From contig CBDCXM010000009.1 in assembly GCA_965223855.1 (NCBI GenBank), forward strand, positions 352,001 through 416,000: a stretch of DNA of 64,000 nt. The letters run 5' to 3'. The translations under genes were made by a program, and so were the position numbers. This stretch comes from Candidatus Multivoradales bacterium. GTDB taxonomy: Bacteria; Acidobacteriota; Thermoanaerobaculia; Multivoradales; JAHEKO01. Shown here in pieces: positions 10,546 through 25,110 of the stretch (position 1 is its first letter; each line of letters begins with the position of its first letter). A model generated the notes under the pieces. That model was not told the origin of the DNA. It was given only the letters and a program-made list of their open reading frames with translations, and made no database searches.

Positions 10546-10648
10546 CGGCGAATCGTATCAACGGCTTCGCCCCACGACTGTGGCAAACGAGGCTTCTCTC
10601 GCGACCTGCGCCAGGTCGTCGTCTCCCCGTCTCGTAACATGGCCGACA

Positions 10649-12826
10649 GTGAAGAAACGAGCCAAGGCCGGGGCTCCGAGCGCCCTGCGCGACTGGGCGC
10701 CGGTGGGCCTTTCGCTGGTGCTCCTCGTCGCCGCTATCGTCGCGACGGTCGCCGAGCCGACCGCGATGACGACCCTGCGTCACGCGGCGTTCGACGCCTA
10801 CCAGCGCCTGCAGCCCCGCGAGTACCGGCCGGCCCCGGTGCGGGTGATCGACATCGACGAGGAGAGTCTCGACCGGCACGGCCAGTGGCCGTGGCCGCGG
10901 ACGACGCTCGCCACGTTGATCGAACGGCTCGACGAAGCCGGAGCGCGCTCGATCGCCCTCGACGTCATGCTCGCCGAGCCGGACCGCACCTCGCCACAGC
11001 TCGCGCTCGAGAGTTGGGCCGCGGACCCGGCCGTCCGGGACCTGGTGGCGCGCCTGCCCGATCACGACGAGGCTCTCGAGAAGAGGCTCGCCGCCTCGCC
11101 GGTAGTCACCGGCTTCATCCTCGATCAGGAGACCCAGGGAGAGACGCCGCTCGAGAAGGGGAGGATGGTGCTCGCCGGCGATCCGGCCGCCGCCTTCCTG
11201 CCGCCGTTTCGCGGTGCCGTCACCTCTCTGCGAGCGTTCGAGGCCGCGGCGGCGGGCAACGGTGCCCTCAACATGATCCCGAGCAACGACGGCATCGTCC
11301 GTCAGCTGCCCCTGTTGCTCGGCCACGGCGGAGCGGTGCGGCCCGGTCTGGCCGCCGAGGCTCTGCGGGTCGCCGAGGGCGCCGACAACTACGTCGTCAA
11401 GGCGTCGGGGGCGAGCGGCGAGGGGCGCTTCGGCGGCCGCACCGGCATTGTCAACGTGCGGATCGGCGACCTCGAGCCGATCGTCACCGACGCGCGCGGC
11501 GCTGTCTGGCTCCACTACTCGGACCCGGTCCCCGAGCGCACGCTCCCGGCCTGGAAGGTGCTGGCGGGCGACGTCCCGGAAGGCGCTCTCGAAGGGGGCA
11601 TCCTCTTCCTCGGCACCTCCGCCGCGGGCCTCCACGACCTGCGCCTCGACCCACTCGGCCGGATCGCCCCGGGAGCAGAGGTGCACGCCCAGGGGATCGA
11701 GCAGATCCTGCAGGGGACCTATCTGACGAGGCCCGACTGGGCGCGGGCGGCCGAGATCCTCTTCATGGTGGCGATGTGGTTCGTGCTCGTCGCGCTGATC
11801 CTGCGCTTCGGCGCGCTGCCGGCGGCGGTGATCGGCATCGCGACGATCGCCGCCGCCTACCTCGGCTCGTGGTTCGCTTTCGATCGTCTGCGGCTGCTGC
11901 TCGATCCAACCTTTCCCTCGCTGTCGGCGCTGTCGATCTACTTTGTCTGCTCGGTGGCGCAGCACTGGCGCGCGGAGCGCGATCGCACCTGGATCCGCGA
12001 CGCCTTCTCGAGCTATATCTCGCCCAATCTCGTCCGGCACCTGATCGACAACCCCGGCGATCTCGCTCTCGGCGGCGAGCGACGCGAGTGCAGCTTCGTG
12101 ATGACCGACCTCGAGTCGTTCACCACACTGGTCGAGAACCTCGAACCGACGGTCGCCGTCAGCCTGCTCAACGAGTACCTCGACGGCATCGTCGACATCG
12201 CGCTGGCGCGCGACGGCACCATCGACCGCATCGTCGGCGACGCGGTAGCGGTGATGTTCTCGGCGCCGGCGGTGCAGCCCGACCACGCCGAACGCGCCGT
12301 CGCCTGCGCCCTCGAGATCGACGCGTTCGCCCGGCGCTTCAGCGCCGCCAGGGGCGAGCAGGGGGTCGAGGTCGGGCGGACGCGGATCGGCGTCAACACG
12401 GGCGTCGTCACCGTCGGCAACGTCGGCGGCGACCGGATCGTCGACTATCGTGCCCTCGGCGATCCGGTCAACACGGCCGCACGCCTCGAGACGGTCAACC
12501 GACACCTCGGTACCAACGTCTGCGTGAGCGCGGCGACCGTCGCCGCCTGCCCCGACTTCCACGGCCGCCCGATCGGACGCCTCCTGCTCAAGGGGAAATC
12601 CGAGGCGGTCGAGGCGTTCGAGCCGCTGTCGCGGGAAGAGGCGGCGGGGGCTTCGAACACGGCCTATCTGCGGGCGTTCGCCCTGATGGAGGAGGAGGCG
12701 GCGGAGGCCCCCGCCGCCTTCGACCGACTGCGGCAGCAACACCCCGACGACCCCCTGGTCGCCCTCCACGCCGATCGCCTCGCCGCCGGCGAGACCGGCT
12801 CGACCATCGCCTTCTCCGAGAAGTAG
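10649..12826 (+). CDS. CHASE2-domain class III nucleotide (adenylate/guanylate-family) cyclase
   Basis: CHASE2 motifs IDIDEESL..GQWPWPR and DGIVRQLPL, then 3 TM helices. Cyclase motifs MTDLESFT, VGDAV, RIGVNTG, GDPVNTAARLE, LKGKSEAV. GTG start at 10649 inferred. Confidence 0.93.
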   Translation: MKKRAKAGAPSALRDWAPVGLSLVLLVAAIVATVAEPTAMTTLRHAAFDAYQRLQPREYRPAPVRVIDIDEESLDRHGQWPWPRTTLATLIERLDEAGARSIALDVMLAEPDRTSPQLALESWAADPAVRDLVARLPDHDEALEKRLAASPVVTGFILDQETQGETPLEKGRMVLAGDPAAAFLPPFRGAVTSLRAFEAAAAGNGALNMIPSNDGIVRQLPLLLGHGGAVRPGLAAEALRVAEGADNYVVKASGASGEGRFGGRTGIVNVRIGDLEPIVTDARGAVWLHYSDPVPERTLPAWKVLAGDVPEGALEGGILFLGTSAAGLHDLRLDPLGRIAPGAEVHAQGIEQILQGTYLTRPDWARAAEILFMVAMWFVLVALILRFGALPAAVIGIATIAAAYLGSWFAFDRLRLLLDPTFPSLSALSIYFVCSVAQHWRAERDRTWIRDAFSSYISPNLVRHLIDNPGDLALGGERRECSFVMTDLESFTTLVENLEPTVAVSLLNEYLDGIVDIALARDGTIDRIVGDAVAVMFSAPAVQPDHAERAVACALEIDAFARRFSAARGEQGVEVGRTRIGVNTGVVTVGNVGGDRIVDYRALGDPVNTAARLETVNRHLGTNVCVSAATVAACPDFHGRPIGRLLLKGKSEAVEAFEPLSREEAAGASNTAYLRAFALMEEEAAEAPAAFDRLRQQHPDDPLVALHADRLAAGETGSTIAFSEK

Positions 12827-12827
12827 C

Positions 12828-14356: not shown

Positions 14357-14799
14357 TCGGCTGCGCTCTCCAACCTCACGAGAAATCGCGTGCCTCGGAT
14401 CCCGATCGTGCCGACCGGGGTCTCCACGTTCGCCGATTCGGGCGACAGCTTGGCGATCAGGCCGGAGACGTAGAGCAGCGTGCCGCGGGCGAGGCGGGAG
14501 AGGAACGCCCCCTCGCTCGCACCCGCCTCGTAGACGTACTCGTCGATCGTGAGACTGGTGTCGGGGCCGATCGACAGTCGGGAGTCGTCGATGAACAGCA
14601 CCCCCAGGGCGCCGTCGGATCCGGTCTCCAGGGTGTCGTCCTGGAACACCGCGGCGCCCAGCTCGGCAGCGCTGCGCTCCCCGCCCGACACGATGAAGGC
14701 ACTTCCACTCAACTCCTTGACGTGGCCGACGGGCTCGGACGCCGCGACGGCACCGGCCGAGAGGACCACGAGAACCAACCAGAGACGGCGATGCATCAC
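14353..14799 (-). CDS. Small periplasmic FecR-domain protein
   Basis: Signal peptide. DTLETGSDGALGVLFIDDSRLSIGPDT and VETPVGTIGIRGTRF (FecR core). Confidence 0.88.
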   Translation of the reverse strand: MMHRRLWLVLVVLSAGAVAASEPVGHVKELSGSAFIVSGGERSAAELGAAVFQDDTLETGSDGALGVLFIDDSRLSIGPDTSLTIDEYVYEAGASEGAFLSRLARGTLLYVSGLIAKLSPESANVETPVGTIGIRGTRFLVRLESAAE

Positions 14800-14925
14800 C
14801 TCTCCCTTCCCTTCAGATGGCTGTTACACGACCCTCACAGAATAGCACCGCCACCTCGCCGGGCAGCTGCCGACAGCGCCACACAGGTCGAAAAATCGCT
14901 ATGACAGACTACCGACACCCTACCC

Positions 14926-16737
14926 ATGGCAGATATGGCAGGTCACACCACAGGCCGCGTCCTCCTCGCCATCGCGCTCGTCGCGGTGATGGCGCCCGCT
15001 GCCTGGTCCCAGGAGGAGACGGCGCCGGTCCGCACCGCCGACGAGGAGCACGCGGCGCTCTTCCTCGAAGACCGCTTCCCGGCCGCCACGACCTGCGCCA
15101 CCTGTCACCCCGACCACTACCGCGAGTGGTCGGTGTCGCCGCACGCCTACGCGCAGATGAGCCCCGTTTTCAACGCCATGCACGGGACGATTCTCAAGCT
15201 GACCAACGGCACGAACGGCGACTTCTGCATCCGCTGCCACACGCCGGTGGGGATGAACCTCGGCGAGCCCGAGTTCATGAGCAACATGGACCGCCACCCG
15301 ACCTCGCGGGAAGGGGTCACCTGCATCGTCTGCCACCGGGTCAATCGCGCCTACGGCAAGCTCAGCGGACGGCTGGCGATCGTCGAGGGCGACGTCTTCG
15401 ACACCGTCTACGGACCGACCGGAGGCGAGGAGCTCGAGCGGGTGATCGACAGCTCCGAGTTTCGCGTCAACACCGAGCGGGGGCAGGCCGGGCGGGCGAT
15501 CCACGCCGAGGCGGAGCCGTTCTTCCAACTCCGAGAGGCGGGCATCTGCGGAACCTGCCACGACGTCAACCTGGTGAACGGCTTCCGTCTCGAGGAGGCG
15601 TTCAGCGAGTTCAAGACGTCACCGGCCGCGCGCCGGGGGGTGACGTGCCAGGACTGCCACATGGGGACGGAGCCGGGAATCGCCTCCGGGTTCCGCCAGG
15701 GGCCGGCGGCAATGATCGGCACCCGGCCGACCGCCGAGCGCCGGCTCACGAATCACATGTTCATCGGGCCGGATTACTCGATCGTCCACCCGGGGATCTT
15801 CCCGCACAACACCCGGGCCTCCGAACTGGCGACGATCCGCGACTGGCTCCAGTTCGACTGGGAAGCGGGCTGGGGCACCGACGCCTTCGAGCTCGAAGCG
15901 CCGGAGGACTACGAGTTCCCCGAGGTGTGGGCCTCCGCCGACGACCGCTACGACGCCCGCGACATCCTCGACGCCAACCTCACGCTGCTCGACGAGGCCA
16001 ACCAGGCGCGCCTCCAGCTGCTGCGCGCCGGTTACGTTCTCGGGGACACGAAGGTCGAGAAGAAGGGTCGCGGGCTCGCCTTCTCGATCGAAGTCCGCAA
16101 CGCCACCGACGGTCACGGCGTGCCGACCGGCTTCGACGCCGAGAGGCTCGTCTGGCTCGAAGTGACGGTCGCGGACGCGGACGGCGAGGTCGTCTTCCGC
16201 TCCGGCGATCTCGACCCGAACGGCGACGTGCGCGACCTGCACTCCCTCTACGTCCACAACGGCGAGCTGCCTCTCGACCGCTACCTCTTCAGCCTCCAGT
16301 CGAAGTTCCTGACCCGGATGGTGCGGGGCGGCGAGCGCGAGCAGGTGCTGGCGATCAACTACTCGCCCGACCCTCTGCCGTTCCTGCGACCCTCGGTCAC
16401 CTCGACGATCCTCACCGGGAGACCTCGCGGCGCCCGCAAGCACAAGCAGAACCTCGCTCCGCTCGGTCACCGCGTGGCGCGCTACGAGGTGCCGGCGGCC
16501 AAGCTCACCGGGCGCCCGCCGTACCGGGCCACGTTCCGGCTCAAGGCGGCGATGGTGCCGGTGAATCTGGTCCACGAAATCAAGGACGTCGGGTTCGACT
16601 ACTTCATGAGCGCTCGCGACGTCGCCGAGCGAGTGGTGGCAGGCCATCTCGTCCTCTGGGAACGACAGCTCGCCCTCGAAGACGGTGCCGAACCGCCCCA
16701 AGCCGAAGAAGCCGTGGATGCCGCCGCGTCGCCCTAG
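14926..16737 (+). CDS. Periplasmic pentaheme c-type cytochrome (c554-like N-domain plus heme-free C-domain)
   Basis: Signal peptide (AWS-QEE). 5 CxxCH: CATCH, CIRCH, CIVCH, CGTCH, CQDCH. GHGVPTGF motif in the C-domain. Confidence 0.9.
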   Translation: MADMAGHTTGRVLLAIALVAVMAPAAWSQEETAPVRTADEEHAALFLEDRFPAATTCATCHPDHYREWSVSPHAYAQMSPVFNAMHGTILKLTNGTNGDFCIRCHTPVGMNLGEPEFMSNMDRHPTSREGVTCIVCHRVNRAYGKLSGRLAIVEGDVFDTVYGPTGGEELERVIDSSEFRVNTERGQAGRAIHAEAEPFFQLREAGICGTCHDVNLVNGFRLEEAFSEFKTSPAARRGVTCQDCHMGTEPGIASGFRQGPAAMIGTRPTAERRLTNHMFIGPDYSIVHPGIFPHNTRASELATIRDWLQFDWEAGWGTDAFELEAPEDYEFPEVWASADDRYDARDILDANLTLLDEANQARLQLLRAGYVLGDTKVEKKGRGLAFSIEVRNATDGHGVPTGFDAERLVWLEVTVADADGEVVFRSGDLDPNGDVRDLHSLYVHNGELPLDRYLFSLQSKFLTRMVRGGEREQVLAINYSPDPLPFLRPSVTSTILTGRPRGARKHKQNLAPLGHRVARYEVPAAKLTGRPPYRATFRLKAAMVPVNLVHEIKDVGFDYFMSARDVAERVVAGHLVLWERQLALEDGAEPPQAEEAVDAAASP

Positions 16738-18163
16738 GGGCTTGCTGAGGAACCCTCGTGGGTCGCGCGCCGGCCTCATCTTCGCCGCCGCGACGCTGAT
16801 GGCGACGGCGATCGGCGCCGCCGAGCCTCCCACCGAGGGAGACGGCGAGAGCGCGAGCCGCCTCACCGACGAGGCGATCCCACTGCAGGTCGATGCGGTA
16901 CCCGAGCGGCCGAAGCCGCCCCTCGAGCTCGGCGAACCGTTCCTCGGCACCGGCACCCTGCGCCCCGGCTTCCGACTGCCGACCGGCGCCGTGTGGCAGC
17001 CGGCGCTCGTCGCTTTCGGCTCCCTGAGGACCGCGGCCCAGAGCTTCGACTCCGGCGCCGGCAGGGTGAGCGAGCTCGTCGCCCGGTTGGACCTCTTCGC
17101 CAACCTTCAGCTCTCGGGAACGGAGCGCGTGGTCGTCGGCTTCCGGCCGCTCGACCGCGACGGTCGCTTCACCTCGTACGTCTTCTCGAGCGACGTCCCG
17201 GGGATCGAGGACGGGTCCCGCGACGAGTGGAACGGCGAGGTGACGAGCGTCTACTTCGAGGGAGACTTCGGCGAGATCTTCCCCAATCTCTCGAAGGACG
17301 ACTTCAGCCGCACCGACGTAGGTTTCTCGGCCGGCCGTCAGCCGCTGATCTTCCAGGAAGGGATGCTGATCAACGACTCGATCGACGGCATCGGGTTGAC
17401 CCGCAACACGCTTCAGCCGGGCAATCTGTCGAACTTCCGCGCCACGCTCTTCCTCGGCTTCGACGAGGTCGGCCGGCCCGACCGCATCGACGACGACGCG
17501 CGGCTCGTCGCGCTCCTGACCTCGACCGATACCAGGAGGTCGACCTGGGACGTCGATCTCGCGTGGGTGGAATCGCAGGTCGAGGGAGACCTCCTGGCCG
17601 GCGGGATCAGCGCGATTCAGAGACTCGGGCACTACAACACCGCGTTTCGACTGCTCGGCTCTTCAGCCCTCGACCGGGAAAGCGACCTCGTCTCCGACGG
17701 CTGGCTGCTGCTCAACGAGGTGTCGTGGACGCCGCACCACAGCCACGACCTCGTCTACGTCAACACCTTCGTCGCCGCCGACCGCTTCTCGTCCGCGGCG
17801 CGCGGGCCGAGCACCGGAGGCCCGCTCGGGCGCGCGGGCATCAACTTCGCTGCCGTCGGGCTGGGCAACTACGGCGCGGCGCTGAGCTCGGAGGCCGAGG
17901 ACGTCGCCGGCGCGGCGGTCGGCTACCAGCGCTTCTTCGATCACACCCGCAAGCAGCTCCTCGTCGAGGCTGGCGCGCGTCTCGGCACCCGTTCCGGGAG
18001 CGCCGACTCCGCCGCCGTCACCGTGCGGTTTCAGACCGCGCTCAAGCGCCACTACGTGCTGGTGCTCGATGCCTTCGGCGGCTACCGCGACCCGGGACCC
18101 GCAGCACCCGGCGGCCGGCAGGAGCTACTCGGTGCGCGGGTCGAACTGGTGACGAAGTTCTGA
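16718..18163 (+). CDS. Putative outer-membrane beta-barrel (porin) protein
   Basis: Signal-like N-terminus, many amphipathic beta-strand patterns, C-terminal ARVELVTKF ending in Phe. Sandwiched between two multiheme cytochromes. Start uncertain (16718 or 16742). Confidence 0.7.
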   Translation: MPPRRPRGLLRNPRGSRAGLIFAAATLMATAIGAAEPPTEGDGESASRLTDEAIPLQVDAVPERPKPPLELGEPFLGTGTLRPGFRLPTGAVWQPALVAFGSLRTAAQSFDSGAGRVSELVARLDLFANLQLSGTERVVVGFRPLDRDGRFTSYVFSSDVPGIEDGSRDEWNGEVTSVYFEGDFGEIFPNLSKDDFSRTDVGFSAGRQPLIFQEGMLINDSIDGIGLTRNTLQPGNLSNFRATLFLGFDEVGRPDRIDDDARLVALLTSTDTRRSTWDVDLAWVESQVEGDLLAGGISAIQRLGHYNTAFRLLGSSALDRESDLVSDGWLLLNEVSWTPHHSHDLVYVNTFVAADRFSSAARGPSTGGPLGRAGINFAAVGLGNYGAALSSEAEDVAGAAVGYQRFFDHTRKQLLVEAGARLGTRSGSADSAAVTVRFQTALKRHYVLVLDAFGGYRDPGPAAPGGRQELLGARVELVTKF

Positions 18164-20202
18164 TGGCGGCCGCCCGCCTCCTCGGCCCGGCGGTGGCCGG
18201 TCTGCTCGCGATCGGCCCGGTGGCGGCGGCCGAGACCCCGGCGGCGCGCGACCCGGCGAAGATCGTCACCGCCGAGGCGTGCGGCGAGTGCCATCTCGAG
18301 GAGTTCGAGGTGTGGAAGACGACGCCTCACGCACTCGGCTTCAAGTCGCTCCACCGCAGCGCCGACGCTGAAGAGATCGCGCGCAAGATGGGTCATCGGC
18401 TCATCAAGCGCGACAGCCCCTGCCTCGAATGTCACTACACGACGGCACTCGACGGCGAGCGCGAACGCGCGGTGTCGGGAGTGTCGTGCGAGTCGTGCCA
18501 CGGCGCCGGCCGCGACTGGATCGAGGTACACAACGACTACGGCCCCGACGCCACCTTCGCCACCGAGACCGACGCCCACCGCGAGCAGCGAATCGCCGCC
18601 AGCCGAGCGGCCGGGATGCTGCGGCCGACCGACCTCTACGAGGTGGCCGCCAACTGCTTCGGCTGCCACACGGTGCCCAACGAGGAGCTCGTCAACGTCG
18701 GCGGCCACACGACGGGCAGCATCGGCTTCGAGCTGGTCGAGTGGTCGCAGGGCGAGATCCGGCATAACTTCGTCGCGGCGCAGCGGGGCGGGAGCAAGGA
18801 GAACGTCGAGCGCTCCGACGAGCGCAAGCGGCTGATGTACGTCGTCGGCCGATCGCTCGAGCTCGAGTACGCGCTGCGCGGACTCGCCAAAGCGACCGAG
18901 GACGGGGCCTACGCGAAGTCGATGATCCGCAAGGTTCGCAACGCGGTTGCCGAGGTCGGCGACATCGCGGCGGTCACGACCCTCGCGCCGGTCAACACCA
19001 TGACCGCCGCGGTGCGCGAAGCCCGGGTCAGCCAGGGGAACGCAGCCGAGCTGCTGGCCGCCGCCGATCGGGTGAGCGCGGCGACCAGAGCGCTGCTCCG
19101 GGAGCCGGCCGGCGCGCAGGTGGCGGCCCTCGATCCTCTGAGACTCGGCCAGCCGCTCCCGGGGACGGATCAACTCGCCGAGGACGAGCGCGAGGGCCTC
19201 GAGGACCCCGTCGAGGGCGCGGCCGAGACCGTCCCGGCGGCCGTCGCCGCGGCGGCCGCACCCGGAGAGCCCGGCGCCACCACCGCCGGCGCCGGCAGCG
19301 GTCGGAGCGTGCCCGACTACGCTCGCAAGACCCGGCTGCGACCGACCTCGCCGCACCGCACGATCGACGCCGGCGCGTGCAGCGGCTGCCACGAGGAGCA
19401 GAACGCCTGGTGGTTCGACGACCCTCACTACGCCGCCGCCGAGCCGTTTCACGAGGGCGATCCGAAGAACGCCCAGATCGCCCGGCTCTACGGGCTCGCG
19501 GCCGGCGAGGCGACCAGGGGAAACCAGCTGTGCATGGACTGTCACGGCACGGTCGTCACCGGCAAGGAGCGCCGCGAAGTGTGGGACGGGGTGAGCTGCC
19601 AGAGCTGCCACGGTGGCGCCGCCGACTACCTCGAGCCGCACAAGGAAGGGGACGAGACGGCCGGAGATCAGCGCAGCGGCTACCTCGCCGCACTCGGTCT
19701 CGGCATGAAGGAGCTGCGTCGTCCCGAGGTGCGGGCGCGCAACTGCGCGAGCTGCCACTACATCACCGACCCGCGTCTGATCTCCGCCGGGCACCCGACC
19801 GGCAGGGACTTCCGGATCGTCGAGCGGATGCCGCGGATTCGCCACTGGGAGCGGGCCGATCTCGACGCCTCCGCCCTCGAGAGCGCCTTCCGCGACGAGG
19901 TGGCACGGCGAGGAGCGATTCCCGAGGTTGTCCTCGCCTCGCTGCCGGCGGGAGAGTCGCCGCTCGCCGCCGCTGCGACGGCGACGCGGACCCGCCGCGC
20001 GGGAGGGGGCTCCCGCCCCGTCAGAGCCCTGCCGCCGCGACAGCGACCGGTCGATCCGATCGCCATCCCGGACCCTGCGAGCGTCGGCCCGCTCGACCTC
20101 CCCCCCTTCGACCCTCCGGCGGACGACGCGCCGCTCGAGGAGGTCCTGGCGCTGATTCAGCAGCGACTCGCCCTCATCTACGAAAACGTTCAGGAGCCGT
20201 GA
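18163..20202 (+). CDS. Periplasmic octaheme cytochrome c (two tandem c554-like tetraheme domains)
   Basis: ATG in a TGATG overlap, signal peptide. 8 CxxCH: CGECH, CLECH, CESCH, CFGCH, CSGCH, CMDCH, CQSCH, CASCH. Repeated GVSCxSCHG. Confidence 0.9.
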   Translation: MAAARLLGPAVAGLLAIGPVAAAETPAARDPAKIVTAEACGECHLEEFEVWKTTPHALGFKSLHRSADAEEIARKMGHRLIKRDSPCLECHYTTALDGERERAVSGVSCESCHGAGRDWIEVHNDYGPDATFATETDAHREQRIAASRAAGMLRPTDLYEVAANCFGCHTVPNEELVNVGGHTTGSIGFELVEWSQGEIRHNFVAAQRGGSKENVERSDERKRLMYVVGRSLELEYALRGLAKATEDGAYAKSMIRKVRNAVAEVGDIAAVTTLAPVNTMTAAVREARVSQGNAAELLAAADRVSAATRALLREPAGAQVAALDPLRLGQPLPGTDQLAEDEREGLEDPVEGAAETVPAAVAAAAAPGEPGATTAGAGSGRSVPDYARKTRLRPTSPHRTIDAGACSGCHEEQNAWWFDDPHYAAAEPFHEGDPKNAQIARLYGLAAGEATRGNQLCMDCHGTVVTGKERREVWDGVSCQSCHGGAADYLEPHKEGDETAGDQRSGYLAALGLGMKELRRPEVRARNCASCHYITDPRLISAGHPTGRDFRIVERMPRIRHWERADLDASALESAFRDEVARRGAIPEVVLASLPAGESPLAAAATATRTRRAGGGSRPVRALPPRQRPVDPIAIPDPASVGPLDLPPFDPPADDAPLEEVLALIQQRLALIYENVQEP

Positions 20203-20203
20203 C

Positions 20204-21838
20204 GTGAGCGAGCCGTTCGAACCGGGCAAGACCGTGCTCAAGCAGATCGAGCAGTACGGCGACCGCTGGAGCGCCTACGGCGCGAGCGAGAGCATCGTCT
20301 CGATCTCCGACAGGCTCACCCTCGAGGAGATGAGGGAGATCGACGTCTTCTCCGACTACGACGACTCGTTCCTCGAGAAGATCCGCTCCGACGTCTCGGT
20401 GGCGGTGTGGAAGCCGGACTCGGTGCTGTTCGAGGAAGGGAGCTACATCGACCTCGCCTTCGTCGTCCTCGAGGGAGAGGTCGAGACCTTCGTCGCCGGG
20501 ATCGGCAAGGGTGAAGCGACGCCGCAGCCGATCTTCGACGCCACACGCACCGTGCTGGGCGACGCCGAGACCACCCTGGCGGCCGAGCGCACCACACTGA
20601 TGCCGACGCTCTCGCCGCCGAGGCGGGCGCCGAAGGAGATCACGCTCCTCGCTTCGATGGACTTCGACATGCCGCGCGAAGGCACCGTGAGACTCGGCCC
20701 CGGCGAGGTGTTCGGCGAGATCGGCGCCCTGAGCGGCTGGCCTCAGTCGGTGACGGCACGGACCGTGACCGAGTGCCGTCTGGTGCAGATCCGGATCAAC
20801 GCGCTCAGGCTGATGAAGCGCAAGTCCGCGGCACTCAAGGAGCGCCTCGACGAGCGCTACCGCGAGCGCTCGCTGAGCGCGCAGCTGCGGACGACGCCGC
20901 TCCTGAGGCGCTCGAGCCCGCTGGTGATCGAGGCGCTCAAGGACGAGGTCGAGCTCGTCTCCTGCGAGCCGGGAGAGACGGTGCTCACCCACGGCGACGA
21001 GCCCGACGCGCTCTATCTGGTGCGCTCCGGCTTCCTCAAGCTGCTGCAGCCGCTGGCCGACGGTCAGATCGCCGTCTCGTACCTGTCGAAGGGGATGACC
21101 CTCGGCGAGGCGGAGCTGCTGCTGCCCGAGATCGACGGCTGGCAGGTCAGCGCCGAATCGGTCGAGTACAGCGAGCTGGTGCGGATCCCGGCACCGGTCT
21201 TCGACAATCTCCTGCGCAACGAGCCGCTGATCGAAGCCGATCTTTGGGCGTCGGCTCAGGAGCGCATCCGCGAGTCCGGCTTCGCGCGGCGGCACATCGG
21301 TCACGCGGAGTTCCTCCAGGAGGCGCTCGACACCGGGCTCGTTCAGGGCAACAGCATCCTGGTGATCGACCTCGAATCCTGCACCCGATGCGACGACTGC
21401 GTGCGCGCCTGTGCCGACACGCACGAGGGGCGCCCCCGCTTCGTGCGCGAGGGAGACAAGTACGCCAACCTCCTGATCGCCAAGTCCTGCTACCACTGCC
21501 GGGATCCGGTCTGTCTCGTCGGCTGCCCGACCGGCGCGATCCATCGCGCCGGGCTGAGCGATGTCGTCGAGATCGAAGACGAAATCTGTATCGGCTGCGC
21601 GAGCTGTTTCCGCAACTGCCCGTACGACGCGATCGTCATGCACGAGACCGGCGACCTGTGGCCGGACGACATGATCCCGGTCGGGCTGCGAGGGCGCGAT
21701 CGCCAGGTCGCCAGCAAGTGCGACCTTTGTGCCGACACCGGTCACGGGCCGGCGTGTGTCAGCAACTGCCCTCAGGGTTGCGCCTACCGGGTCGGATCGC
21801 TGGAGGAGTTCCAACGGCTGATGAGCGGGGAGAGCTAG
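20204..21838 (+). CDS. Two cNMP-binding (CAP_ED) domains fused to a DmsB/NrfC-like 4x[4Fe-4S] ferredoxin
   Basis: LFEEG...GEVFGEIG and HGDEPDALYLVRSG...LGEAE. Cys sets CTRCDDCVRAC, CYHCRDPVCLVGCP, CIGCASCFRNCP, KCDLC..PACVSNCP. No signal peptide. Confidence 0.9.
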   Translation: MSEPFEPGKTVLKQIEQYGDRWSAYGASESIVSISDRLTLEEMREIDVFSDYDDSFLEKIRSDVSVAVWKPDSVLFEEGSYIDLAFVVLEGEVETFVAGIGKGEATPQPIFDATRTVLGDAETTLAAERTTLMPTLSPPRRAPKEITLLASMDFDMPREGTVRLGPGEVFGEIGALSGWPQSVTARTVTECRLVQIRINALRLMKRKSAALKERLDERYRERSLSAQLRTTPLLRRSSPLVIEALKDEVELVSCEPGETVLTHGDEPDALYLVRSGFLKLLQPLADGQIAVSYLSKGMTLGEAELLLPEIDGWQVSAESVEYSELVRIPAPVFDNLLRNEPLIEADLWASAQERIRESGFARRHIGHAEFLQEALDTGLVQGNSILVIDLESCTRCDDCVRACADTHEGRPRFVREGDKYANLLIAKSCYHCRDPVCLVGCPTGAIHRAGLSDVVEIEDEICIGCASCFRNCPYDAIVMHETGDLWPDDMIPVGLRGRDRQVASKCDLCADTGHGPACVSNCPQGCAYRVGSLEEFQRLMSGES

Positions 21839-21841
21839 GCC

Positions 21842-22672
21842 TTGACTCACCGCCACCGCAGCGCGCGCCGGTCGAGGGCGGCCGTGATCGCGGCCTCCGT
21901 CGCCGCGCTCGCAGTGGTCGTCTACGTCGGCGGCGCGACCCTGTGGGAGGTGGCTCCGGGAACTCCGTTGAGCATCGGCTTCGGTGTCGCGGCGGCGATC
22001 CTCCTTCTCGGGGCAGCCCTCTACGGCGCGCGGCGGCGACTCGTACGCCTCGCCTCGCGACGCAGCCTCGGGACAGCCTCGAGCTGGCTCGCCTTTCATC
22101 TCTACGGCAGCCTCCTCTTCCTGCTGCTCGTGCACCTCCACTCCGGCTTCGCCGTTCCGAGCGAAGGGGTGACCTGGTGGCTGTGGGCACTCTCCTGGTG
22201 GACGGTCGTCACGGGGGTCGCCGGTCGGCTGCTGCAACTGTGGATCCCCAGAGCGCTCGGCTCGGGCCTGTCGGTGGAGGTGCTCTACGAGCGCATCCCC
22301 GAGCTGATCGAGGAGCTGCGCGAACGGTCGGAGACTCTCGCCGCCACTTGCGACGAGTCGGTGCAGAATCTCTACTCCAACCAGGTGGCGAAGCAGCTCA
22401 CGGGGCCGAGGCGCCGCTGGATCTACTTCGTCGATCCGGCCGGCGGAGCGCGGTCGCAACTGCGTGAGTTCGACTACCTGCGCACGATGCTGCCGCCGGA
22501 GGAGCAGGACAAACTCGATCGACTGGCGGGGTACCTGCGCACGAAGCTCGAATTCGACGCTCACTACACCCTGCAGGGAGTGCTGCGCTCGTGGCTGTGG
22601 ATCCACGTCCCGCCGTCGCTGGCGGTGCTCGCCCTGGTCATCGTCCACGTCTTCGCGGTCACCTACTACTGA
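21842..22672 (+). CDS. Integral membrane protein with conserved-looking intramembrane His residues (putative b-heme/ferric-reductase-like subunit)
   Basis: About 5 TM segments. WLAFHLYGS..LVHLHSGF and WLWIHVPPS..IVHVF His pairs. Confidence 0.65.
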   Translation: MTHRHRSARRSRAAVIAASVAALAVVVYVGGATLWEVAPGTPLSIGFGVAAAILLLGAALYGARRRLVRLASRRSLGTASSWLAFHLYGSLLFLLLVHLHSGFAVPSEGVTWWLWALSWWTVVTGVAGRLLQLWIPRALGSGLSVEVLYERIPELIEELRERSETLAATCDESVQNLYSNQVAKQLTGPRRRWIYFVDPAGGARSQLREFDYLRTMLPPEEQDKLDRLAGYLRTKLEFDAHYTLQGVLRSWLWIHVPPSLAVLALVIVHVFAVTYY

Positions 22673-22687
22673 TGGCGGACTCACACG

Positions 22688-24268
22688 ATGGCGGCTAAGC
22701 GTCGGCAGGGGAAGGGCTCCTACGGCCGCTGGCAACTGCCGGTGGCGAGGCGCTATCTCGTCCCGGGGTCGAGGGGGCGTCGGATGGTCCTGGCGGCCGC
22801 GCTCTTCGCGCTCATCCTGGCCGCGGTGGCGGCAGACTTCCGGCTGCGGCGCGGCAAGGCGCTCTCCAAGGGCGCGCTGTCGTCGCACCACGCCCTCCAG
22901 GAGCAGGACTGCGCCTCCTGCCACGTCGAGTTCGATGCGGTGAGCGACGACCGCTGCTCCTCGTGCCACGAGAAGTTCGGCGATCAGCTCGGCGTCTACA
23001 CCTTCGCCGCTCACTACCTGTACCGGTCGACCGACTTCCAGCGCGTCGTCGCCTCGGAACACGAGCTGCCGTGCTCCTCCTGCCATCTCGAGCACGCGGG
23101 GCGCGAAGCTCAGATCACCCGCGTACCGGATTCGCGCTGTCTCGACTGTCACGAATACGGCGCCTTCGGCGACGACCACCCGGAGTTCGCCTTCGCGCGG
23201 GAGGAGGCCGCCGAGGCGGGCGGCCTGCACTTCCCTCACATCGAGCACATTCGCGAAGTGATGGCGCAGCAGAACCTGCACGACGTCGAGCGGTCGTGCC
23301 TCTACTGTCATCGGCCGGAGGCGGACGGGCGCTCGTTCCAGCCGATCGAGTTCGATCTCCATTGCGACTCCTGCCACCTCACGACGACTACGGCGACGCC
23401 GCGGCTGCCGATCGCAGGAGAGGCGGGCGAGGAGGATGGTCCCGGAGTCGAGACGCTGGAAGCAATCCGCGCTCGCGGCGGCCCGGGCACGGAGTGGGCC
23501 TACTACACGAACCCCAACGAGTTCCGCCGCACCGGGCCGCGGATCCTCAAGTCGCCGCTGCATCACGAGGATCCATGGATTCTCGACAACCTGCGCCGGC
23601 TGCGGCGCGAGCTCTATCCCGACGCCGGGCTCGCCGACCTCCTGACCGCCTCCCCCGATGCCCCGGTGCATCGATTGAGCGAGGTCTACGGCGAGGCGAT
23701 CGCCACCCTGCAGTCACAGGTCGACGGCCTGCGTGCCCGCCCCGAGCCGGAGATCCAACGTGACCTCGCGAAGCTCTCCGCGCTCCTGACCGAGGCGGAG
23801 CGGAGCCTCCTCGATCCCTATACCCCCCTCGACGAGACCGAGTTCCAGCTCGCCCTCGAGCGACCCGATCCGAATCTGTCGGCGGAGCAAGTCGACTCGA
23901 TCGACCGCCTCGCCGACGAGCTGACGACGCCGTGCCGCCAGTGCCACATCGTCGAGAACGCCACCCTCGCCCGGGTCCAGACCGATCAGCGGACTCTCCT
24001 GAGCGCCGAGTTCGACCACCGCGCCCACATCCTCCAGCGGCGCTGTCTCGACTGCCATCGCGAGATCCCCGTACTCGAGCACCTGAACTCCCCCGAGCCG
24101 GTCGATCCCGCGATCGACAACGCCGGCATTCACAACCTGCCGCGCATCGAAGCGTGCCGGGAGTGCCACCAGCCGCGCCAGGTCTCGGACCGCTGCGTCA
24201 CCTGCCACGTCTTTCATCCGGACAAGAACCGGCGATCGGAACTGCTGCTCTACCTGGAGACCGGCTGA
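22688..24268 (+). CDS. Membrane-anchored decaheme cytochrome c (c3/c7-like)
   Basis: N-terminal TM. 10 CxxCH: CASCH, CSSCH x2, CLDCH x2, CLYCH, CDSCH, CRQCH, CRECH, CVTCH. FPHxxH and FDHxxH distal-ligand motifs. Confidence 0.92.
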   Translation: MAAKRRQGKGSYGRWQLPVARRYLVPGSRGRRMVLAAALFALILAAVAADFRLRRGKALSKGALSSHHALQEQDCASCHVEFDAVSDDRCSSCHEKFGDQLGVYTFAAHYLYRSTDFQRVVASEHELPCSSCHLEHAGREAQITRVPDSRCLDCHEYGAFGDDHPEFAFAREEAAEAGGLHFPHIEHIREVMAQQNLHDVERSCLYCHRPEADGRSFQPIEFDLHCDSCHLTTTTATPRLPIAGEAGEEDGPGVETLEAIRARGGPGTEWAYYTNPNEFRRTGPRILKSPLHHEDPWILDNLRRLRRELYPDAGLADLLTASPDAPVHRLSEVYGEAIATLQSQVDGLRARPEPEIQRDLAKLSALLTEAERSLLDPYTPLDETEFQLALERPDPNLSAEQVDSIDRLADELTTPCRQCHIVENATLARVQTDQRTLLSAEFDHRAHILQRRCLDCHREIPVLEHLNSPEPVDPAIDNAGIHNLPRIEACRECHQPRQVSDRCVTCHVFHPDKNRRSELLLYLETG

Positions 24269-24606
24269 TGGGAGCGCGGCTGCTGTGCAAGACCGGCAAG
24301 CTGGAGGGGCTCGAGTTCTCGCTCGGCGAAGAGACGACCGTGGGTCGCCGCCGCTCGAGCGACGCGGTGGTCGACGCCCCCGGGGTTTCGGGCACGCACG
24401 CGACGATCCGCTGGTCGGAGGAGGGCGGCCGCTACGAGCTCGAGGACCTCGGCAGTACCAACGGCACCCTGCTCGACGGCGTCCCCGCCCAGGGCATCGA
24501 GCCTCTCGGGACCCTGCACGTCATCACCTTCGGGCGGCACCACAGCTTCATCTTCGTGTGGGACGGCGCGACCCCGACCGGCACGACGAGCGCCGAGGAG
24601 GAGTAG
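24268..24606 (+). CDS. Stand-alone FHA domain protein
   Basis: ATG in a TGATG overlap. TVGR, VSGTHA, LEDLGSTNGTLLDG. Confidence 0.9.
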   Translation: MGARLLCKTGKLEGLEFSLGEETTVGRRRSSDAVVDAPGVSGTHATIRWSEEGGRYELEDLGSTNGTLLDGVPAQGIEPLGTLHVITFGRHHSFIFVWDGATPTGTTSAEEE

Positions 24607-24660
24607 GCCGCTCTCCCCCCCTCGGCCTCGGCCCCTCGGAGAACTCCGAGCCCGGGCTCG

Positions 24661-25110
24661 TCAGGACTCTCGCGAATCGGGCGGCGAATCGGGCTTGGCC
24701 TTCTTGAGGAAGCGCAGCGTCAAGAAGTTGGCGAGCGTGAGCGCAACGGCGATCTCGAAACGCCCGACCGCGACCGCCACGCCGACCGCGGCGGTACTCC
24801 AGATGCTCGCCGCGGTCGCCGTGCCGTGTACGGTCACTCCGCGCTTGACGATCGCCCCACCACCGAGGAAACCGACCCCGGTCAGCAGCCCCTGGATGAT
24901 CCTGCCGAGTTCCGGGCTGGCGTTGCCGAGCACCGAGCGCGCCAGCAGCACATAGGCGGTGCTCGCCATCGCCACCAGCGGGAAGGTGCGCAACCCGAGA
25001 CTGCGCTCCTCCTGTTCGCGGTCCCACGCGATCGGCAACGCAAGCAGAAACGAAGCGCCGAGCAGCAGGAGGTGCTCCAGGACGCTCGCCGGATCGACCA
25101 GTTCGCTCAA
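24661..25110 (-). CDS. MgtC/SapB family membrane protein
   Basis: GLRTFPLV, GVGFLGGGAI, VHGTATAASIW. TTG start overlaps the MarR stop (TTGA). Confidence 0.9.
   Translation of the reverse strand: MSELVDPASVLEHLLLLGASFLLALPIAWDREQEERSLGLRTFPLVAMASTAYVLLARSVLGNASPELGRIIQGLLTGVGFLGGGAIVKRGVTVHGTATAASIWSTAAVGVAVAVGRFEIAVALTLANFLTLRFLKKAKPDSPPDSRES

What the first reader, a model, noticed from the sequence alone, without database searches (positions are those of the whole stretch)
14926..24268. 23-heme porin-cytochrome operon spanning both membranes but with no catalytic subunit
Seen: 5+8+10 CxxCH motifs, a Phe-terminated barrel candidate, a His-paired membrane protein and a cytoplasmic DmsB-like ferredoxin, linked by TGATG overlaps or 1-15 bp gaps. 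No molybdopterin, hydrogenase, flavin/NAD(P) or NrfD subunit is present, and the cytochromes do not look like MtrA/MtrC. Inference: a non-Mtr wire from the cell surface to cytoplasmic Fe-S clusters, whose terminal partner is encoded elsewhere or is the signalling module itself.
Basis: partly seen in the sequence, partly recalled or inferred. Interest (0 to 1): 0.75.

Follow-up and report, generated by a model that had tools for sequence, protein, structure and literature searches.

The report
Ptd-type multihaem porin-cytochrome gene cluster
This is a real, intact operon for a 23-haem electron chain running from cytoplasmic iron-sulfur clusters to an outer-membrane barrel; it belongs to a widespread gene cluster that a preprint has already named "ptd" but nobody has characterised.

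Summary
There are three cytochromes with 5, 8 and 10 CxxCH motifs, a barrel protein, a membrane protein with four invariant His, and a ferredoxin with tandem cNMP-type domains, all tightly packed on one strand. A seventh gene, an FHA protein at 24268-24606, was missed.

The cluster matches the ptdABCDEFG operon named in bioRxiv 10.1101/2023.11.21.568154, whose function is unknown. Here it lacks ptdC and carries a doubled PtdD.

- **Conservation:** the six-gene order recurs in 22 of 80 related loci across several phyla, and the G5-G6 core is near-universal.
- **Barrel:** G2 models as an 18-strand barrel like AlgE, OprD and MOMP, not like MtrB.
- **G1-G2 complex:** a complex model (score 0.90, best control 0.00) puts a haem-free segment of the pentahaem protein inside the barrel.
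- **G1:** it is 60-77% identical across phyla and related to pentahaem cytochrome c552 (PDB 5ZE8). "No catalytic subunit" is therefore doubtful.
- **Missing partner:** relatives encode an FAD/NAD(P) oxidoreductase-FHA-2Fe-2S protein just downstream, in 40 of 47 loci with enough flank. This window does not.

My reading is a regulated electron-export chain that ends in a porin-docked periplasmic haem enzyme, not an Mtr-like wire to minerals. The substrate and the direction of electron flow remain inferred.

The parts
14926..16737 (+). G1, PtdA-like: secreted pentahaem cytochrome with a haem-free C-terminal domain of about 350 aa
   Evidence: It has 5 CxxCH and no other Cys. It is homologous to PDB 5ZE8 pentahaem c552 (E 4.8e-14 as a single sequence, 2e-16 as a profile), including the H-x-x-PTG stretch of the C-terminal domain. 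Identity to 22 orthologues from several phyla is 60-77% for 21 of them and 39% for L046.
16718..18163 (+). G2, PtdB-like: outer-membrane beta-barrel of about 18 strands, with a conserved periplasmic N-terminal arm (residues about 46-95)
   Evidence: There is no Pfam or NCBIfam hit. The AF2 model has pLDDT 79.4. The best Foldseek PDB matches are MOMP, AlgE, OccK/OprD and chitoporin. Of 95 invariant residues, 48 lie in the modelled interface with G1, against 84 of 341 variable ones.
18163..20202 (+). G3, PtdD-like: periplasmic octahaem cytochrome made of two homologous c554-like tetrahaem modules
   Evidence: It has 8 CxxCH and matches Pfam Cytochrome_C554 twice (85 bits). The two halves align at 31% identity over 177 aa, E 1e-18. 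The N-terminal module matches Nitrosomonas c554, PDB 1BVB, E 6.8e-7.
20204..21838 (+). G4, PtdE-like: cytoplasmic protein with two tandem cNMP-type domains and a four-group (16 Cys) 4Fe-4S ferredoxin domain
   Evidence: Domain hits are. All 16 Cys are invariant in 61 sequences. It has no signal peptide. It is fused to G5 in L024, L029, L053 and L055 and in P0362, P0399 and P0495.
21842..22672 (+). G5, PtdF-like: inner-membrane protein with 5 TM helices, a cytoplasmic helical domain of about 110 aa and four invariant His; a candidate dihaem b
   Evidence: Alignment A2 of 45 sequences shows H86, H100, H255 and H269 invariant. The AF2 model has pLDDT 88 and no PDB fold match at E<=0.001. The Atlas's automatic name for its cluster is 'ferric reductase like transmembrane component'. 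A profile search finds 3,112 cluster representatives at E<=1e-3.
22688..24268 (+). G6, PtdG-like: decahaem cytochrome with an N-terminal membrane anchor
   Evidence: It has 10 CxxCH. The count is 10 in 65 of 69 complete orthologues. It follows G5 in nearly all loci.
24268..24606 (+).
   Evidence: Its start overlaps the G6 stop in TGATG. Pfam FHA E 1.4e-15. It matches the N-terminal FHA domain of the two-FHA protein of about 290 aa that follows G6 in 44 of 80 loci.
9145..10545 (-). Ser/Thr protein kinase fused to a cNMP-binding domain; a possible regulator whose link to the operon is inferred
   Evidence: Pfam Pkinase and cNMP_binding. A Ser/Thr kinase lies within 10 kb of the cluster in 30 of 80 related loci.
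10274..12826 (+). CHASE2-domain adenylate/guanylate cyclase (start codon uncertain); a possible source of the nucleotide signal, link inferred
   Evidence: Pfam CHASE2 (180 bits) and Guanylate_cyc. It was not found near the cluster in the 80 related loci at E<=1e-8.

Best explanation
This is a ptd-type cluster: seven co-transcribed genes that build one redox chain across the cell envelope.

Proposed path. G4, with 16 Cys that could hold up to four 4Fe-4S clusters, sits in the cytoplasm on G5. G5 carries two b haems across the inner membrane on its two His pairs. The membrane-anchored decahaem G6 and the soluble octahaem G3 then relay electrons through the periplasm to the pentahaem G1. G1 is clamped under the 18-strand barrel G2, with a haem-free loop pushed into the barrel lumen.

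Proposed function. I read G1 as the terminal enzyme, acting on a small soluble compound that reaches it through or at G2. I do not read the system as a haem wire that crosses the outer membrane.

Proposed direction. The likely direction is outward. In most relatives a cytoplasmic FAD/NAD(P)H oxidoreductase with FHA and 2Fe-2S domains is encoded just downstream and would feed the chain. That gene is missing from this window, so here the donor is encoded elsewhere or replaced. FHA domains, nearby Ser/Thr kinases and phosphatases, and the cNMP-type domains of G4 suggest that the flux is gated by signalling.

Shown by tools: the domain content, the conservation, the gene order, the G4-G5 fusions, the barrel class and a complex model that passes its controls.

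Inferred: haem b binding, the order of carriers, the direction of flow, the substrate and the regulation.
For: Published type: the cluster matches the ptdABCDEFG architecture gene for gene, except for ptdC (passages and sections read).

Synteny in the 80 loci fetched with the G5 profile:
- All six genes are present in 22 loci, in the window's order in 20 of them, plus 5 cut by contig ends.
- G3-G6 are present in 24 loci, G4-G6 in 8, and G5-G6 alone in 16.

Links between the parts:
- G4 and G5 are fused in L024, L029, L053 and L055 and in P0362, P0399 and P0495. The fusion places the Fe-S domain at the cytoplasmic N-terminus of G5.
- G5 has invariant His 86/100 and 255/269, each pair 13 residues apart on one TM helix.

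G1-G2 complex: score 0.90 and best of 3 controls 0.00. That mark was reached by 116 of 157 solved complexes and 2 of 215 mismatched pairs; these counts hold only roughly because my own alignments were used. The runs agree in at least 82% of contacts, and the partner's pLDDT is at least 86. The interface takes in inward-facing alternate residues of most strands and most of the periplasmic turns of G2, together with G1 residues about 465-516. Invariant G2 residues are enriched in that interface, 48 of 95 against 84 of 341, Fisher p 4e-6.

Barrel class: the best PDB fold matches are all porin-sized barrels that I recall as 18-stranded (MOMP, AlgE, OccK/OprD, chitoporin).

G1 looks like an enzyme: median identity is 70%, against 43% for G3 and 47% for G6. 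It is homologous to 5ZE8.

Precedent: the pentahaem ExtKL of the Geobacter extHIJKL 'porin-cytochrome' cluster is a periplasmic polysulfide reductase (bioRxiv 10.1101/2025.11.18.688581, abstract and sections 4, 7 and 11 read). extI in that cluster encodes an outer-membrane porin (PMC11976967, passage).

Cytoplasmic donor in relatives: a Pyr_redox_2-FHA-Fer2 protein follows the cluster in 52 of 80 loci, and in 40 of the 47 with at least 5.5 kb of flank. It is kept even in 7 of the 16 loci that lack a G4 hit.
Against: - No biochemical datum exists for any Ptd protein. The naming preprint calls the function 'completely unknown'.
- The window lacks the flavoprotein donor and keeps only one of the two FHA domains of the downstream protein. 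This copy could therefore work differently or be decaying.
- G1 has six invariant His outside the motifs. That is enough for bis-His ligation of all five haems, so no open catalytic haem is evident. It also lacks the Cys/Sec site of MccSep.
- G5 matches no Pfam family and no solved fold, so haem binding rests on the His pattern alone.
- The complex model is a confidence score, not a measurement. Inward-facing barrel residues tend to be conserved anyway, which weakens the enrichment test.
- The strand number was inferred from DSSP segments, contact parity and fold matches, not counted on coordinates.
- All 80 loci were fetched through G5, so the counts describe neighbourhoods of G5 only.
Confidence: 0.55

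Rival explanations
1. Mtr-like extracellular electron transfer. The chain delivers respiratory electrons through the outer membrane to insoluble Fe(III)/Mn(IV), humics or electrodes.
For: A barrel gene sits next to multihaem cytochrome genes, and the complex model puts part of the cytochrome inside the barrel, which resembles the MtrAB principle. The naming preprint also raises iron reduction as a possibility. Weak sub-threshold hits to MtrC/MtrF and DmsE-family models exist.
Against: The barrel matches 18-strand channels, not MtrB. The 26-strand size of MtrB is recalled, not tested. The inserted G1 segment (about 465-516) has no CxxCH, and all five motifs lie at residues 57-245. No lipoprotein or surface cytochrome is present: G6 has an N-terminal TM anchor, and G1 and G3 have plain signal peptides. 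Scores against MtrA/DmsE (30.7 vs 192.2), OmcA/MtrC (29.7 vs 209.3) and the GSU2203 family (23.3 vs 325) are far below their cut-offs. Carriers include organisms described as aerobes: Sulfidibacter corallicola (L005; PMC8841776, passages) and a Salinibacter MAG (L069).
Confidence: 0.12
2. Electron uptake. G1 oxidises a periplasmic or imported donor such as a reduced sulfur compound, hydroxylamine/NO or Fe(II). Electrons then flow inward through G3, G6 and G5 to the cytoplasmic Fe-S protein, and in relatives on to NAD(P)+.
For: Every carrier in the chain is reversible in principle. The preprint reports ptd genes in many nitrite-oxidising Nitrospirales, which need reverse electron flow. The c554-type modules of G3 belong to a family known from ammonia oxidisers. 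An Fe-S protein on the cytoplasmic face of a dihaem b subunit recalls NarHI (recalled).
Against: Inward transfer from haem c to low-potential Fe-S clusters and NAD(P)+ runs uphill and against the membrane potential (textbook bioenergetics, not tested here). No quinone-coupling or proton-pumping module is in the cluster. Many carriers are heterotrophs.
Confidence: 0.15
3. A redox sensor rather than a respiratory chain. The haem chain reports the periplasmic or external redox state to the cNMP/FHA/kinase machinery.
For: Signalling parts are unusually dense. G4 has tandem cNMP-type domains. FHA domains occur in G7 and in the relatives' flavoprotein. PP2C genes occur in 11 loci and Ser/Thr kinase genes in 30 of the 80 loci. 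A CHASE2 cyclase and a cNMP-kinase lie upstream here.
Against: Twenty-three c haems, up to four Fe-S clusters and a dedicated barrel are far more than a sensor needs. ptdAB are highly transcribed in the field according to the preprint. G1 shows enzyme-like conservation. The phosphate-binding Arg of canonical cNMP sites (recalled motif) is replaced in both G4 domains, so the ligand is uncertain.
Confidence: 0.08
4. In this genome the cluster is a stranded remnant. It lost its cytoplasmic donor by rearrangement and no longer functions.
For: The flavoprotein gene is absent from the window. It is also absent from the 120 best hits listed of 869 when I looked for the window's contig length, though this is inconclusive. 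G7 keeps one FHA domain where relatives have two. Unrelated converging genes (MgtC, MarR) follow directly.
Against: All seven ORFs are intact, with every CxxCH, every Fe-S Cys and all four His in place. GC3 of 0.87-0.91 matches that of the neighbouring genes. L059, another complete cluster, also lacks the flavoprotein within 7.6 kb. The 16 loci without G4 show that the parts list is flexible.
Confidence: 0.1

Closest known systems
ptdABCDEFG cluster of marine Alphaproteobacteria UBA11136 and others (bioRxiv 10.1101/2023.11.21.568154)
   Same: [quoted passage not shown] That paper also notes the homology to T. tepidum c552.
   Different: There is no PtdC (FAD/NAD(P) oxidoreductase) between the porin and the next cytochrome. 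PtdD is doubled to eight haems. An FHA gene follows the decahaem gene. The preprint counts two 4Fe-4S clusters in PtdE, whereas I find 16 invariant Cys in four groups. Direct sequence comparison was not possible because the preprint's supplementary tables are closed.
Geobacter sulfurreducens ExtHIJKL, with ExtKL = MccSep polysulfide reductase (bioRxiv 10.1101/2025.11.18.688581; PDB 9WT8)
   Same: An outer-membrane barrel gene sits beside a periplasmic pentahaem protein built from a haem cap and an Ig-like beta-sandwich with a long hairpin. It shows that a cluster read as a 'porin-cytochrome conduit' can hold an enzyme.
   Different: G1 has no Sec or Cys outside its CxxCH motifs. Its score against the ExtKL model is 36.7 bits, against a cut-off of 250. 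The profile hit to 9WT8 is only E 0.26. The Ext cluster has no G4/G5/G6 equivalents.
Pentahaem cytochrome c552 of Thermochromatium tepidum (PDB 5ZE8)
   Same: This is the only solved structure with clear sequence homology to G1, E 2e-16 by profile. The match covers all five haem motifs and the H-x-x-PTG strand of the C-terminal domain.
   Different: It is 435 aa against 603 aa for G1. The long conserved stretch 430-570 of G1, which the model puts in and under the barrel, is only partly matched, with a second aligned stretch ending near residue 434. The function of c552 is unknown (PMC11976967, passage).
MtrCAB porin-cytochrome complex of Shewanella
   Same: The principle is shared: a periplasmic multihaem protein is held in an outer-membrane barrel, and decahaem proteins are present.
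   Different: The barrel class is different. All family scores are far below their cut-offs. There is no surface lipoprotein cytochrome. The inserted segment is haem-free.
NADPH oxidase / ferric-reductase-domain proteins, and NarHI-type Fe-S plus dihaem b pairs
   Same: Two His pairs lie 13 residues apart on two TM helices, and a flavin/NAD(P)H module and Fe-S carriers sit on the cytoplasmic side in relatives. This is a working analogy for carrying electrons across the membrane.
   Different: G5 matches neither Pfam Ferric_reduct nor any solved fold. Relatives give only sub-threshold DUF4405 and Ni_hydr_CYTB hits. G5 has five helices with a cytoplasmic insert of about 110 aa, and the flavin module is a separate thioredoxin-reductase-like protein.

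Membership tests
ptd cluster (Elbon et al. preprint) | [quoted passage not shown] | tested here: met
   It has 5 CxxCH. 5ZE8 matches at E 4.8e-14 and 2e-16, including the C-terminal H-x-x-PTG stretch.
ptd cluster (Elbon et al. preprint) | PtdB: porin gene directly after PtdA | tested here: met
   G1 is followed by G2 in 23 of 23 loci.
ptd cluster (Elbon et al. preprint) | PtdC: FAD/NAD(P)-binding oxidoreductase between the porin and the tetrahaem gene | tested here: not met
   G2 and G3 share TGATG, so no gene lies between them. No comparable gene is in the operon. The window's one FAD-binding gene (60881-62119) is halogenase/monooxygenase-like and lies 36 kb away.
ptd cluster (Elbon et al. 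preprint) | PtdD: periplasmic tetrahaem protein | tested here: inconclusive
   G3 has eight haems as two homologous tetrahaem modules. Among 47 complete orthologues, 20 have 8 CxxCH, 9 have 7, 15 have 3, 2 have 10 and 1 has 4.
ptd cluster (Elbon et al. preprint) | PtdE (cNMP + 4Fe-4S), PtdF (ferric-reductase-like TM protein) and PtdG (decahaem) in this order | tested here: met
   
ptd cluster (Elbon et al. preprint) | Sequence homology to the published Ptd proteins themselves | not testable with these tools
MtrCAB / PioAB porin-cytochrome | Large MtrB/PioB-family barrel (26 strands in MtrB, recalled) | tested here: not met
   The best PDB fold matches listed (ranks 1-50) are all porin-sized barrels such as MOMP, AlgE, OccK/OprD, chitoporin and Wzi. 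G2 has no NCBIfam or Pfam hit.
MtrCAB / PioAB porin-cytochrome | MtrA/DmsE-family decahaem and OmcA/MtrC-family surface decahaem | tested here: not met
   TIGR03508 scores 30.7 bits (G1) and 14.8 bits (G3) against a cut-off of 192.2. TIGR03507 scores 29.7 bits (G6) against 209.3.
MccSep / ExtKL pentahaem polysulfide reductase | Haem-ligating Cys plus a catalytic Sec/Cys outside the CxxCH motifs | tested here: not met
   All 10 Cys of G1 are in CxxCH motifs. NF040886 scores 36.7 bits against a cut-off of 250.
Ferric-reductase-domain (NOX/STEAP-type) dihaem b proteins | Two His pairs, each on one TM helix about 13 residues apart | tested here: met
   H86/H100 and H255/H269 are invariant in 45 sequences and lie in helices 79-101 and 219-275 of the model.
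Ferric-reductase-domain (NOX/STEAP-type) dihaem b proteins | Recognisable sequence or fold homology (Pfam Ferric_reduct, solved NOX/STEAP/MsrQ folds) | tested here: not met
   G5 has no Pfam hit at E<=0.1 and no PDB fold match at E<=0.001. The only support is an automatic Atlas cluster name and sub-threshold DUF4405 and Ni_hydr_CYTB hits in 2 of 14 relatives scanned.
Ferric-reductase-domain (NOX/STEAP-type) dihaem b proteins | Binds two b haems | not testable with these tools
   This needs spectroscopy of the purified protein.
DmsB/NrfC/HycB four-cluster ferredoxins | Four Cys groups (16 Cys) | tested here: met
   All 16 Cys are invariant in 61 sequences. The best PDB matches are HycB3 (5.3e-16) and PsrB, deposited as 'NrfC protein' (2.8e-12).
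DmsB/NrfC/HycB four-cluster ferredoxins | Membership of a named equivalog, with a partner catalytic subunit | tested here: not met
   The best NCBIfam hit is DmsB at 64.2 bits against a cut-off of 214.1. No molybdopterin or hydrogenase gene is in the operon.
Cyclic-nucleotide-binding domains | Pfam cNMP_binding above its cut-off | tested here: met
   93 bits against 27.5, in two stretches. The tandem arrangement matches PKA regulatory subunits.
Cyclic-nucleotide-binding domains | Canonical phosphate-binding cassette with its Arg (motif recalled) | tested here: not met
   Domain 1 reads FGEIGALSGWPQSVTA, with Gln conserved where the Arg is expected. Domain 2 also lacks the Arg. The pattern is conserved in 61 sequences.

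The most novel reading that the evidence does not exclude
The Ptd core (FAD/NAD(P)H-FHA-2Fe-2S protein, G4, G5, G6) is a bacterial, multi-subunit counterpart of NADPH oxidase. It would be a phospho-Thr- and nucleotide-gated exporter of cytoplasmic reducing power that plugs into interchangeable outer modules. One such module is G1-G2. Another, found in 20 of the 80 loci, consists of an HbpS-like protein, an unknown protein, a multihaem protein of about 1000 aa and an LVIVD propeller. On this reading G1-G2 is a new kind of porin-cytochrome junction, in which a haem-free hairpin of a pentahaem enzyme occupies an 18-strand barrel. That would turn a substrate channel into the mouth of a periplasmic active site.
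Probability: 0.3. Interest if true: 0.8.

Novelty: new variant of a known kind. Interest (0 to 1): 0.55.

Why it matters
The family is large: 3,112 clusters of G5 relatives at 50% identity. The related loci span Acidobacteriota, Bacteroidota/Rhodothermales, KSB1, Calditrichia, Ignavibacteria, Myxococcota and Nitrospirota. According to the preprint it is also highly transcribed in an ocean oxygen-deficient zone. Yet no function is known.

If it is a regulated route from cytoplasmic NAD(P)H to a porin-docked haem enzyme, it would add a new way for bacteria to spend or sense reducing power at the envelope. It would also caution against reading every barrel-plus-cytochrome cluster as mineral respiration.

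A cultured carrier, Sulfidibacter corallicola M133 (locus L005), makes this testable.

Tried and rejected
- **G2 and G5 families:** Pfam and NCBIfam gave nothing for either protein.
- **G5 fold:** Foldseek against the PDB found no match at E<=0.001.
- **Promoter and terminator scan of 14300-25200:** 0 promoter-like sites and 1 terminator-like site, against 3.0 expected. Uninformative.
- **Open catalytic haem in G1:** I looked by counting invariant His. There are six outside the motifs, so the count neither shows nor excludes one.
- **Missing flavoprotein in the window:** tblastn at E<=1e-5 found none, and Pfam on 27 further ORFs found none of that type.
- **Missing flavoprotein elsewhere on the contig:** none of the 120 best hits listed, of 869, had the window's contig length. 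This is inconclusive because only the best 120 are shown.
- **LVIVD/multihaem lead:** the Tenderiales 'uet' preprint (10.1101/2022.05.06.490989, passages) describes a different system.
- **CHASE2 cyclase, FecR-domain, OmpA-like, MgtC and MarR neighbours:** not found near the cluster in any of the 80 loci at E<=1e-8. I do not count them as parts, although the cyclase is listed as a possible local regulator.
- **Interface enrichment in G1:** invariant residues are not enriched, 17 of 110 against 105 of 440.
- **Literature:** 'ptdABCDEFG' and combinations of cyclic nucleotide-binding, 4Fe-4S, multiheme, porin, pentaheme, decaheme and ferric reductase turned up only the one preprint that describes this cluster type.

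Full report
**What is there.** The window is high in G+C (0.62-0.73), so I chose genes by third-position GC. Seven genes on the + strand form one tight block from 14926 to 24606.
- G1, 14926-16737: 603 aa, signal peptide, 5 CxxCH.
- G2, 16718-18163: 481 aa, ends in KF.
- G3, 18163-20202: 679 aa, signal peptide, 8 CxxCH.
- G4, 20204-21838: 544 aa.
- G5, 21842-22672: 276 aa.
- G6, 22688-24268: 526 aa, N-terminal membrane anchor, 10 CxxCH.
Its ATG overlaps the G6 stop.

The junctions are a 20-nt overlap, TGATG, gaps of 1, 3 and 15 nt, and TGATG again. All 46 Cys of the three cytochromes lie in CxxCH motifs. The 36 other ORFs I took as genes (15,311 residues) contain no such motif.

**Domains.**
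- G1, G3 and G6 match only general multihaem models such as Cytochrome_C554, c7 and c3. They score far below the cut-offs of the MtrA/DmsE, OmcA/MtrC and GSU2203 families.
- G3 consists of two homologous c554-like tetrahaem modules, 31% identical over 177 aa, E 1e-18.
- G4 has two cNMP-type domains arranged like those of PKA regulatory subunits. Its ferredoxin domain is closest to HycB3, PsrB (deposited as 'NrfC protein') and HycB. Its 16 Cys in four groups are invariant in 61 sequences, which fits four clusters rather than two. It has no export signal. In both cNMP-type domains the Arg of the canonical phosphate-binding cassette (recalled motif) is replaced, so the ligand is uncertain.
- G2 and G5 match no Pfam or NCBIfam family.

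**The two unknowns.**
- G2 has more than 1,000 relatives at E<=1e-3 among the candidates scored, and the best are 55-69% identical. With 45 of them, AlphaFold2 gives a barrel with mean pLDDT 79.4. The best Foldseek matches in the PDB are MOMP, AlgE, OccK/OprD, chitoporin and Wzi, E 2e-12 to 1e-8. I recall all of these as 18-strand barrels. DSSP shows 19 long segments; they give 18 strands if 136-143 and 150-158 form one kinked strand, which also fits the parity of the contacts described below. I could not count strands on coordinates.
- G5 models as five TM helices with a cytoplasmic helical insert of about 110 aa (pLDDT 88). It has no solved structural relative.
- In G5, H86/H100 on the third helix and H255/H269 on the last are invariant in 45 sequences. 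This is the classic spacing for two stacked b haems, but it is a sequence pattern, not a measurement. A profile search finds 3,112 cluster representatives.

**Relatives and gene order.** A scan of one genome per species with the G5 profile returned 80 loci. They come from Acidobacteriota, KSB1, Bacteroidota, Rhodothermales including Salinibacter, Ignavibacteria, Calditrichia, Myxococcota, Nitrospirota and others. tblastn with the window's proteins gave these classes:

| Genes found | Loci |
|---|---|
| All six (window order in 20 of 22) | 22, plus 5 cut by contig ends |
| G3-G4-G5-G6 | 24 |
| G4-G5-G6 | 8 |
| G5-G6 only | 16 |

- G1 is always followed by G2 (23 of 23 loci).
- G4 and G5 form one ORF in L024, L029, L053 and L055 and in three independent full-length cluster representatives.
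- Median identity to the window is 70% for G1, 53% for G2, 43% for G3, 56% for G4, 48% for G5 and 47% for G6.
- All counts describe neighbourhoods of G5, because that protein was the bait.

**What the window lacks.** Downstream of G6, relatives encode a two-FHA protein in 44 of 80 loci. They also encode a protein of about 760 aa with a thioredoxin-reductase-like FAD/NAD(P) domain, FHA domains and a 2Fe-2S ferredoxin domain. That protein is present in 52 of 80 loci, in 40 of the 47 with at least 5.5 kb of flank, and in 15 of the 16 complete clusters with that much flank. A PP2C phosphatase (11 loci) and a Ser/Thr kinase (30 loci) often follow.

The window has only G7, which matches the first FHA domain. 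Unrelated converging genes come next. No homologue of the flavoprotein is in the 64 kb. None of the 120 best database hits listed had the window's contig length, which is inconclusive. The flavoprotein is kept in 7 of the 16 loci without a G4 hit. In 20 loci a different outer module replaces G1-G2: an HbpS-like protein, an unknown protein, a multihaem protein of about 1000 aa and an LVIVD propeller. So the core is modular.

**G1 and G2 together.** I modelled G1 residues 36-585 with G2 residues 46-481, each with its own alignment.
- The score was 0.90, and the best of 3 controls scored 0.00.
- That mark was reached by 116 of 157 solved complexes and 2 of 215 mismatched pairs. These counts hold only roughly because my own alignments were used.
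- The three runs agree in at least 82% of contacts, and the partner's pLDDT is at least 86.
- No similar complex is known to me, so recall from a solved structure seems unlikely. The result is still the model's own confidence, not proof.
- The interface covers inward-facing alternate residues of most strands and most of the periplasmic turns of G2. It also covers one inward-folded loop (372-375) and the whole N-terminal arm 46-101.
- On G1 it covers residues about 465-516 and 546-568, and parts of the haem domain.
- The inserted stretch is among the best-conserved parts of G1 and has no haem motif.
- Invariant G2 residues are enriched in the interface, 48 of 95 against 84 of 341, p 4e-6. G1 shows no such enrichment, 17 of 110 against 105 of 440.

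**What is known.** A full-text search found one description of this cluster type: the ptdABCDEFG operon in bioRxiv 10.1101/2023.11.21.568154 (passages, results section 8 and discussion section 9 read). It lists the following parts:
- a porin;
- an FAD/NAD(P) oxidoreductase;
- a tetrahaem protein;
- a cNMP-domain protein with 4Fe-4S clusters;
- a ferric-reductase-like membrane protein;
- a decahaem protein.

The authors call the function 'completely unknown'. A search for the name itself found only that paper.

The window matches this gene for gene, except that ptdC is absent, PtdD is doubled and an FHA gene follows. I could not compare sequences because the supplement is closed.

G1's only solved homologue is the pentahaem c552 of T. 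tepidum, PDB 5ZE8, E 2e-16 by profile, whose function is unknown. A second preprint (10.1101/2025.11.18.688581; abstract and sections 4, 7 and 11 read) shows that ExtKL of the Geobacter extHIJKL cluster is a periplasmic polysulfide reductase. ExtKL is a pentahaem protein with an Ig-like stem and a long hairpin. extI in the same cluster encodes a porin (PMC11976967, passage). G1 lacks ExtKL's Cys/Sec site and is not a member of that family, but the precedent matters.

**Reading.** The best-supported picture is one chain with the following steps:
- cytoplasmic Fe-S protein (G4);
- b haems across the inner membrane (G5);
- anchored decahaem (G6);
- soluble octahaem (G3);
- pentahaem G1, clamped under and into the G2 barrel.

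Electrons in most relatives would come from a cytoplasmic NAD(P)H flavoprotein, and the flux would be gated by FHA/kinase and cNMP-type signalling.

Because the barrel is of the substrate-channel size and its modelled occupant is haem-free, I favour a porin-coupled periplasmic enzyme acting on a small soluble substrate over a wire to minerals. The direction of flow, the substrate, haem b binding and the regulation are all inferred.

The rivals are Mtr-like mineral respiration, inward electron uptake, a redox sensor, and a stranded remnant in this genome. They are weighed in their own sections.

**Verdict.** The finding is real and its anatomy was read correctly. What this analysis adds:
- the seventh gene;
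- the barrel class;
- a passing G1-G2 complex model with a plug-in-barrel geometry;
- natural G4-G5 fusions;
- the conserved flavoprotein, FHA, kinase and phosphatase genes in relatives, and their absence here.

Noticed in passing
window 24268-24606 (+): A 112-aa FHA-domain gene overlaps the stop of the decahaem gene (TGATG). It is the seventh gene of the operon, lies outside the finding's coordinates, and is a one-domain version of the two-FHA protein found after G6 in 44 of 80 related loci.
   Followed up: yes
window 9145-14799: A divergent signalling and envelope block lies upstream. It holds a Ser/Thr kinase fused to a cNMP-binding domain (9145-10545, -), a CHASE2 adenylate/guanylate cyclase (10274-12826, +), an unknown 238-aa gene (12828-13544, -), an OmpA-like gene (13682-14356, -) and a FecR-domain gene (14353-14799, -). 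Only a kinase recurs near the cluster in other genomes.
   Followed up: partly
L018:12555-20057, L023:3266-7172, L044:326-7257 and 17 further loci: Twenty related loci lack G1-G2. Next to the G5-G6 core they carry another conserved set instead: an HbpS-like protein of about 550 aa, an unknown protein of about 600 aa, a multihaem protein of about 1000 aa and an LVIVD beta-propeller. This looks like an alternative outer module.
   Followed up: partly
L046, L017, L036: The gene order is rearranged. L046 (Myxococcota) has G3-G4-G5-G6-G1-G2 with divergent G1 (39%) and G2 (28%). L017 and L036 have G3-G6-G4-G5.
   Followed up: no
window 20204-21838 (G4 residues about 168-190 and 298-325): Both cNMP-type domains lack the Arg of the canonical phosphate-binding cassette (recalled motif). 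The first reads FGEIGALSGWPQSVTA and is conserved in 61 sequences. The ligand may not be cAMP or cGMP.
   Followed up: partly
window 37041-44593 and 56059-57393: Five genes encode BamB/PQQ-like beta-propeller proteins: 37041-38477, 38774-40174 (-), 40911-43121, 43118-44593 and 56059-57393. Aldehyde and iron-type alcohol dehydrogenase genes lie nearby at 53573-56291.
   Followed up: no
window 46348-53570: An AbiEii-type nucleotidyltransferase toxin gene (46348-47214) sits next to an N6/N4 DNA methylase (47245-50097, -) and a ResIII helicase (50331-53570, -). This looks like a type III-like restriction-modification island. G+C dips to 0.64 at 46-48 kb.
   Followed up: no
window 24661-29159 and 35055-35948: There are two MgtC-family genes (24661-25158 -, 28698-29159 +), a MarR regulator (25107-25607 -) and two MscS-type channel genes (25672-26610, 35055-35948).
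   Followed up: no
window 57390-63761: A HemN-like radical SAM gene (57390-58724), a TonB-dependent receptor (58735-60849), an FAD-dependent halogenase/monooxygenase-like gene (60881-62119) and a sodium:solute symporter (62301-63761) lie in a row.
   Followed up: no
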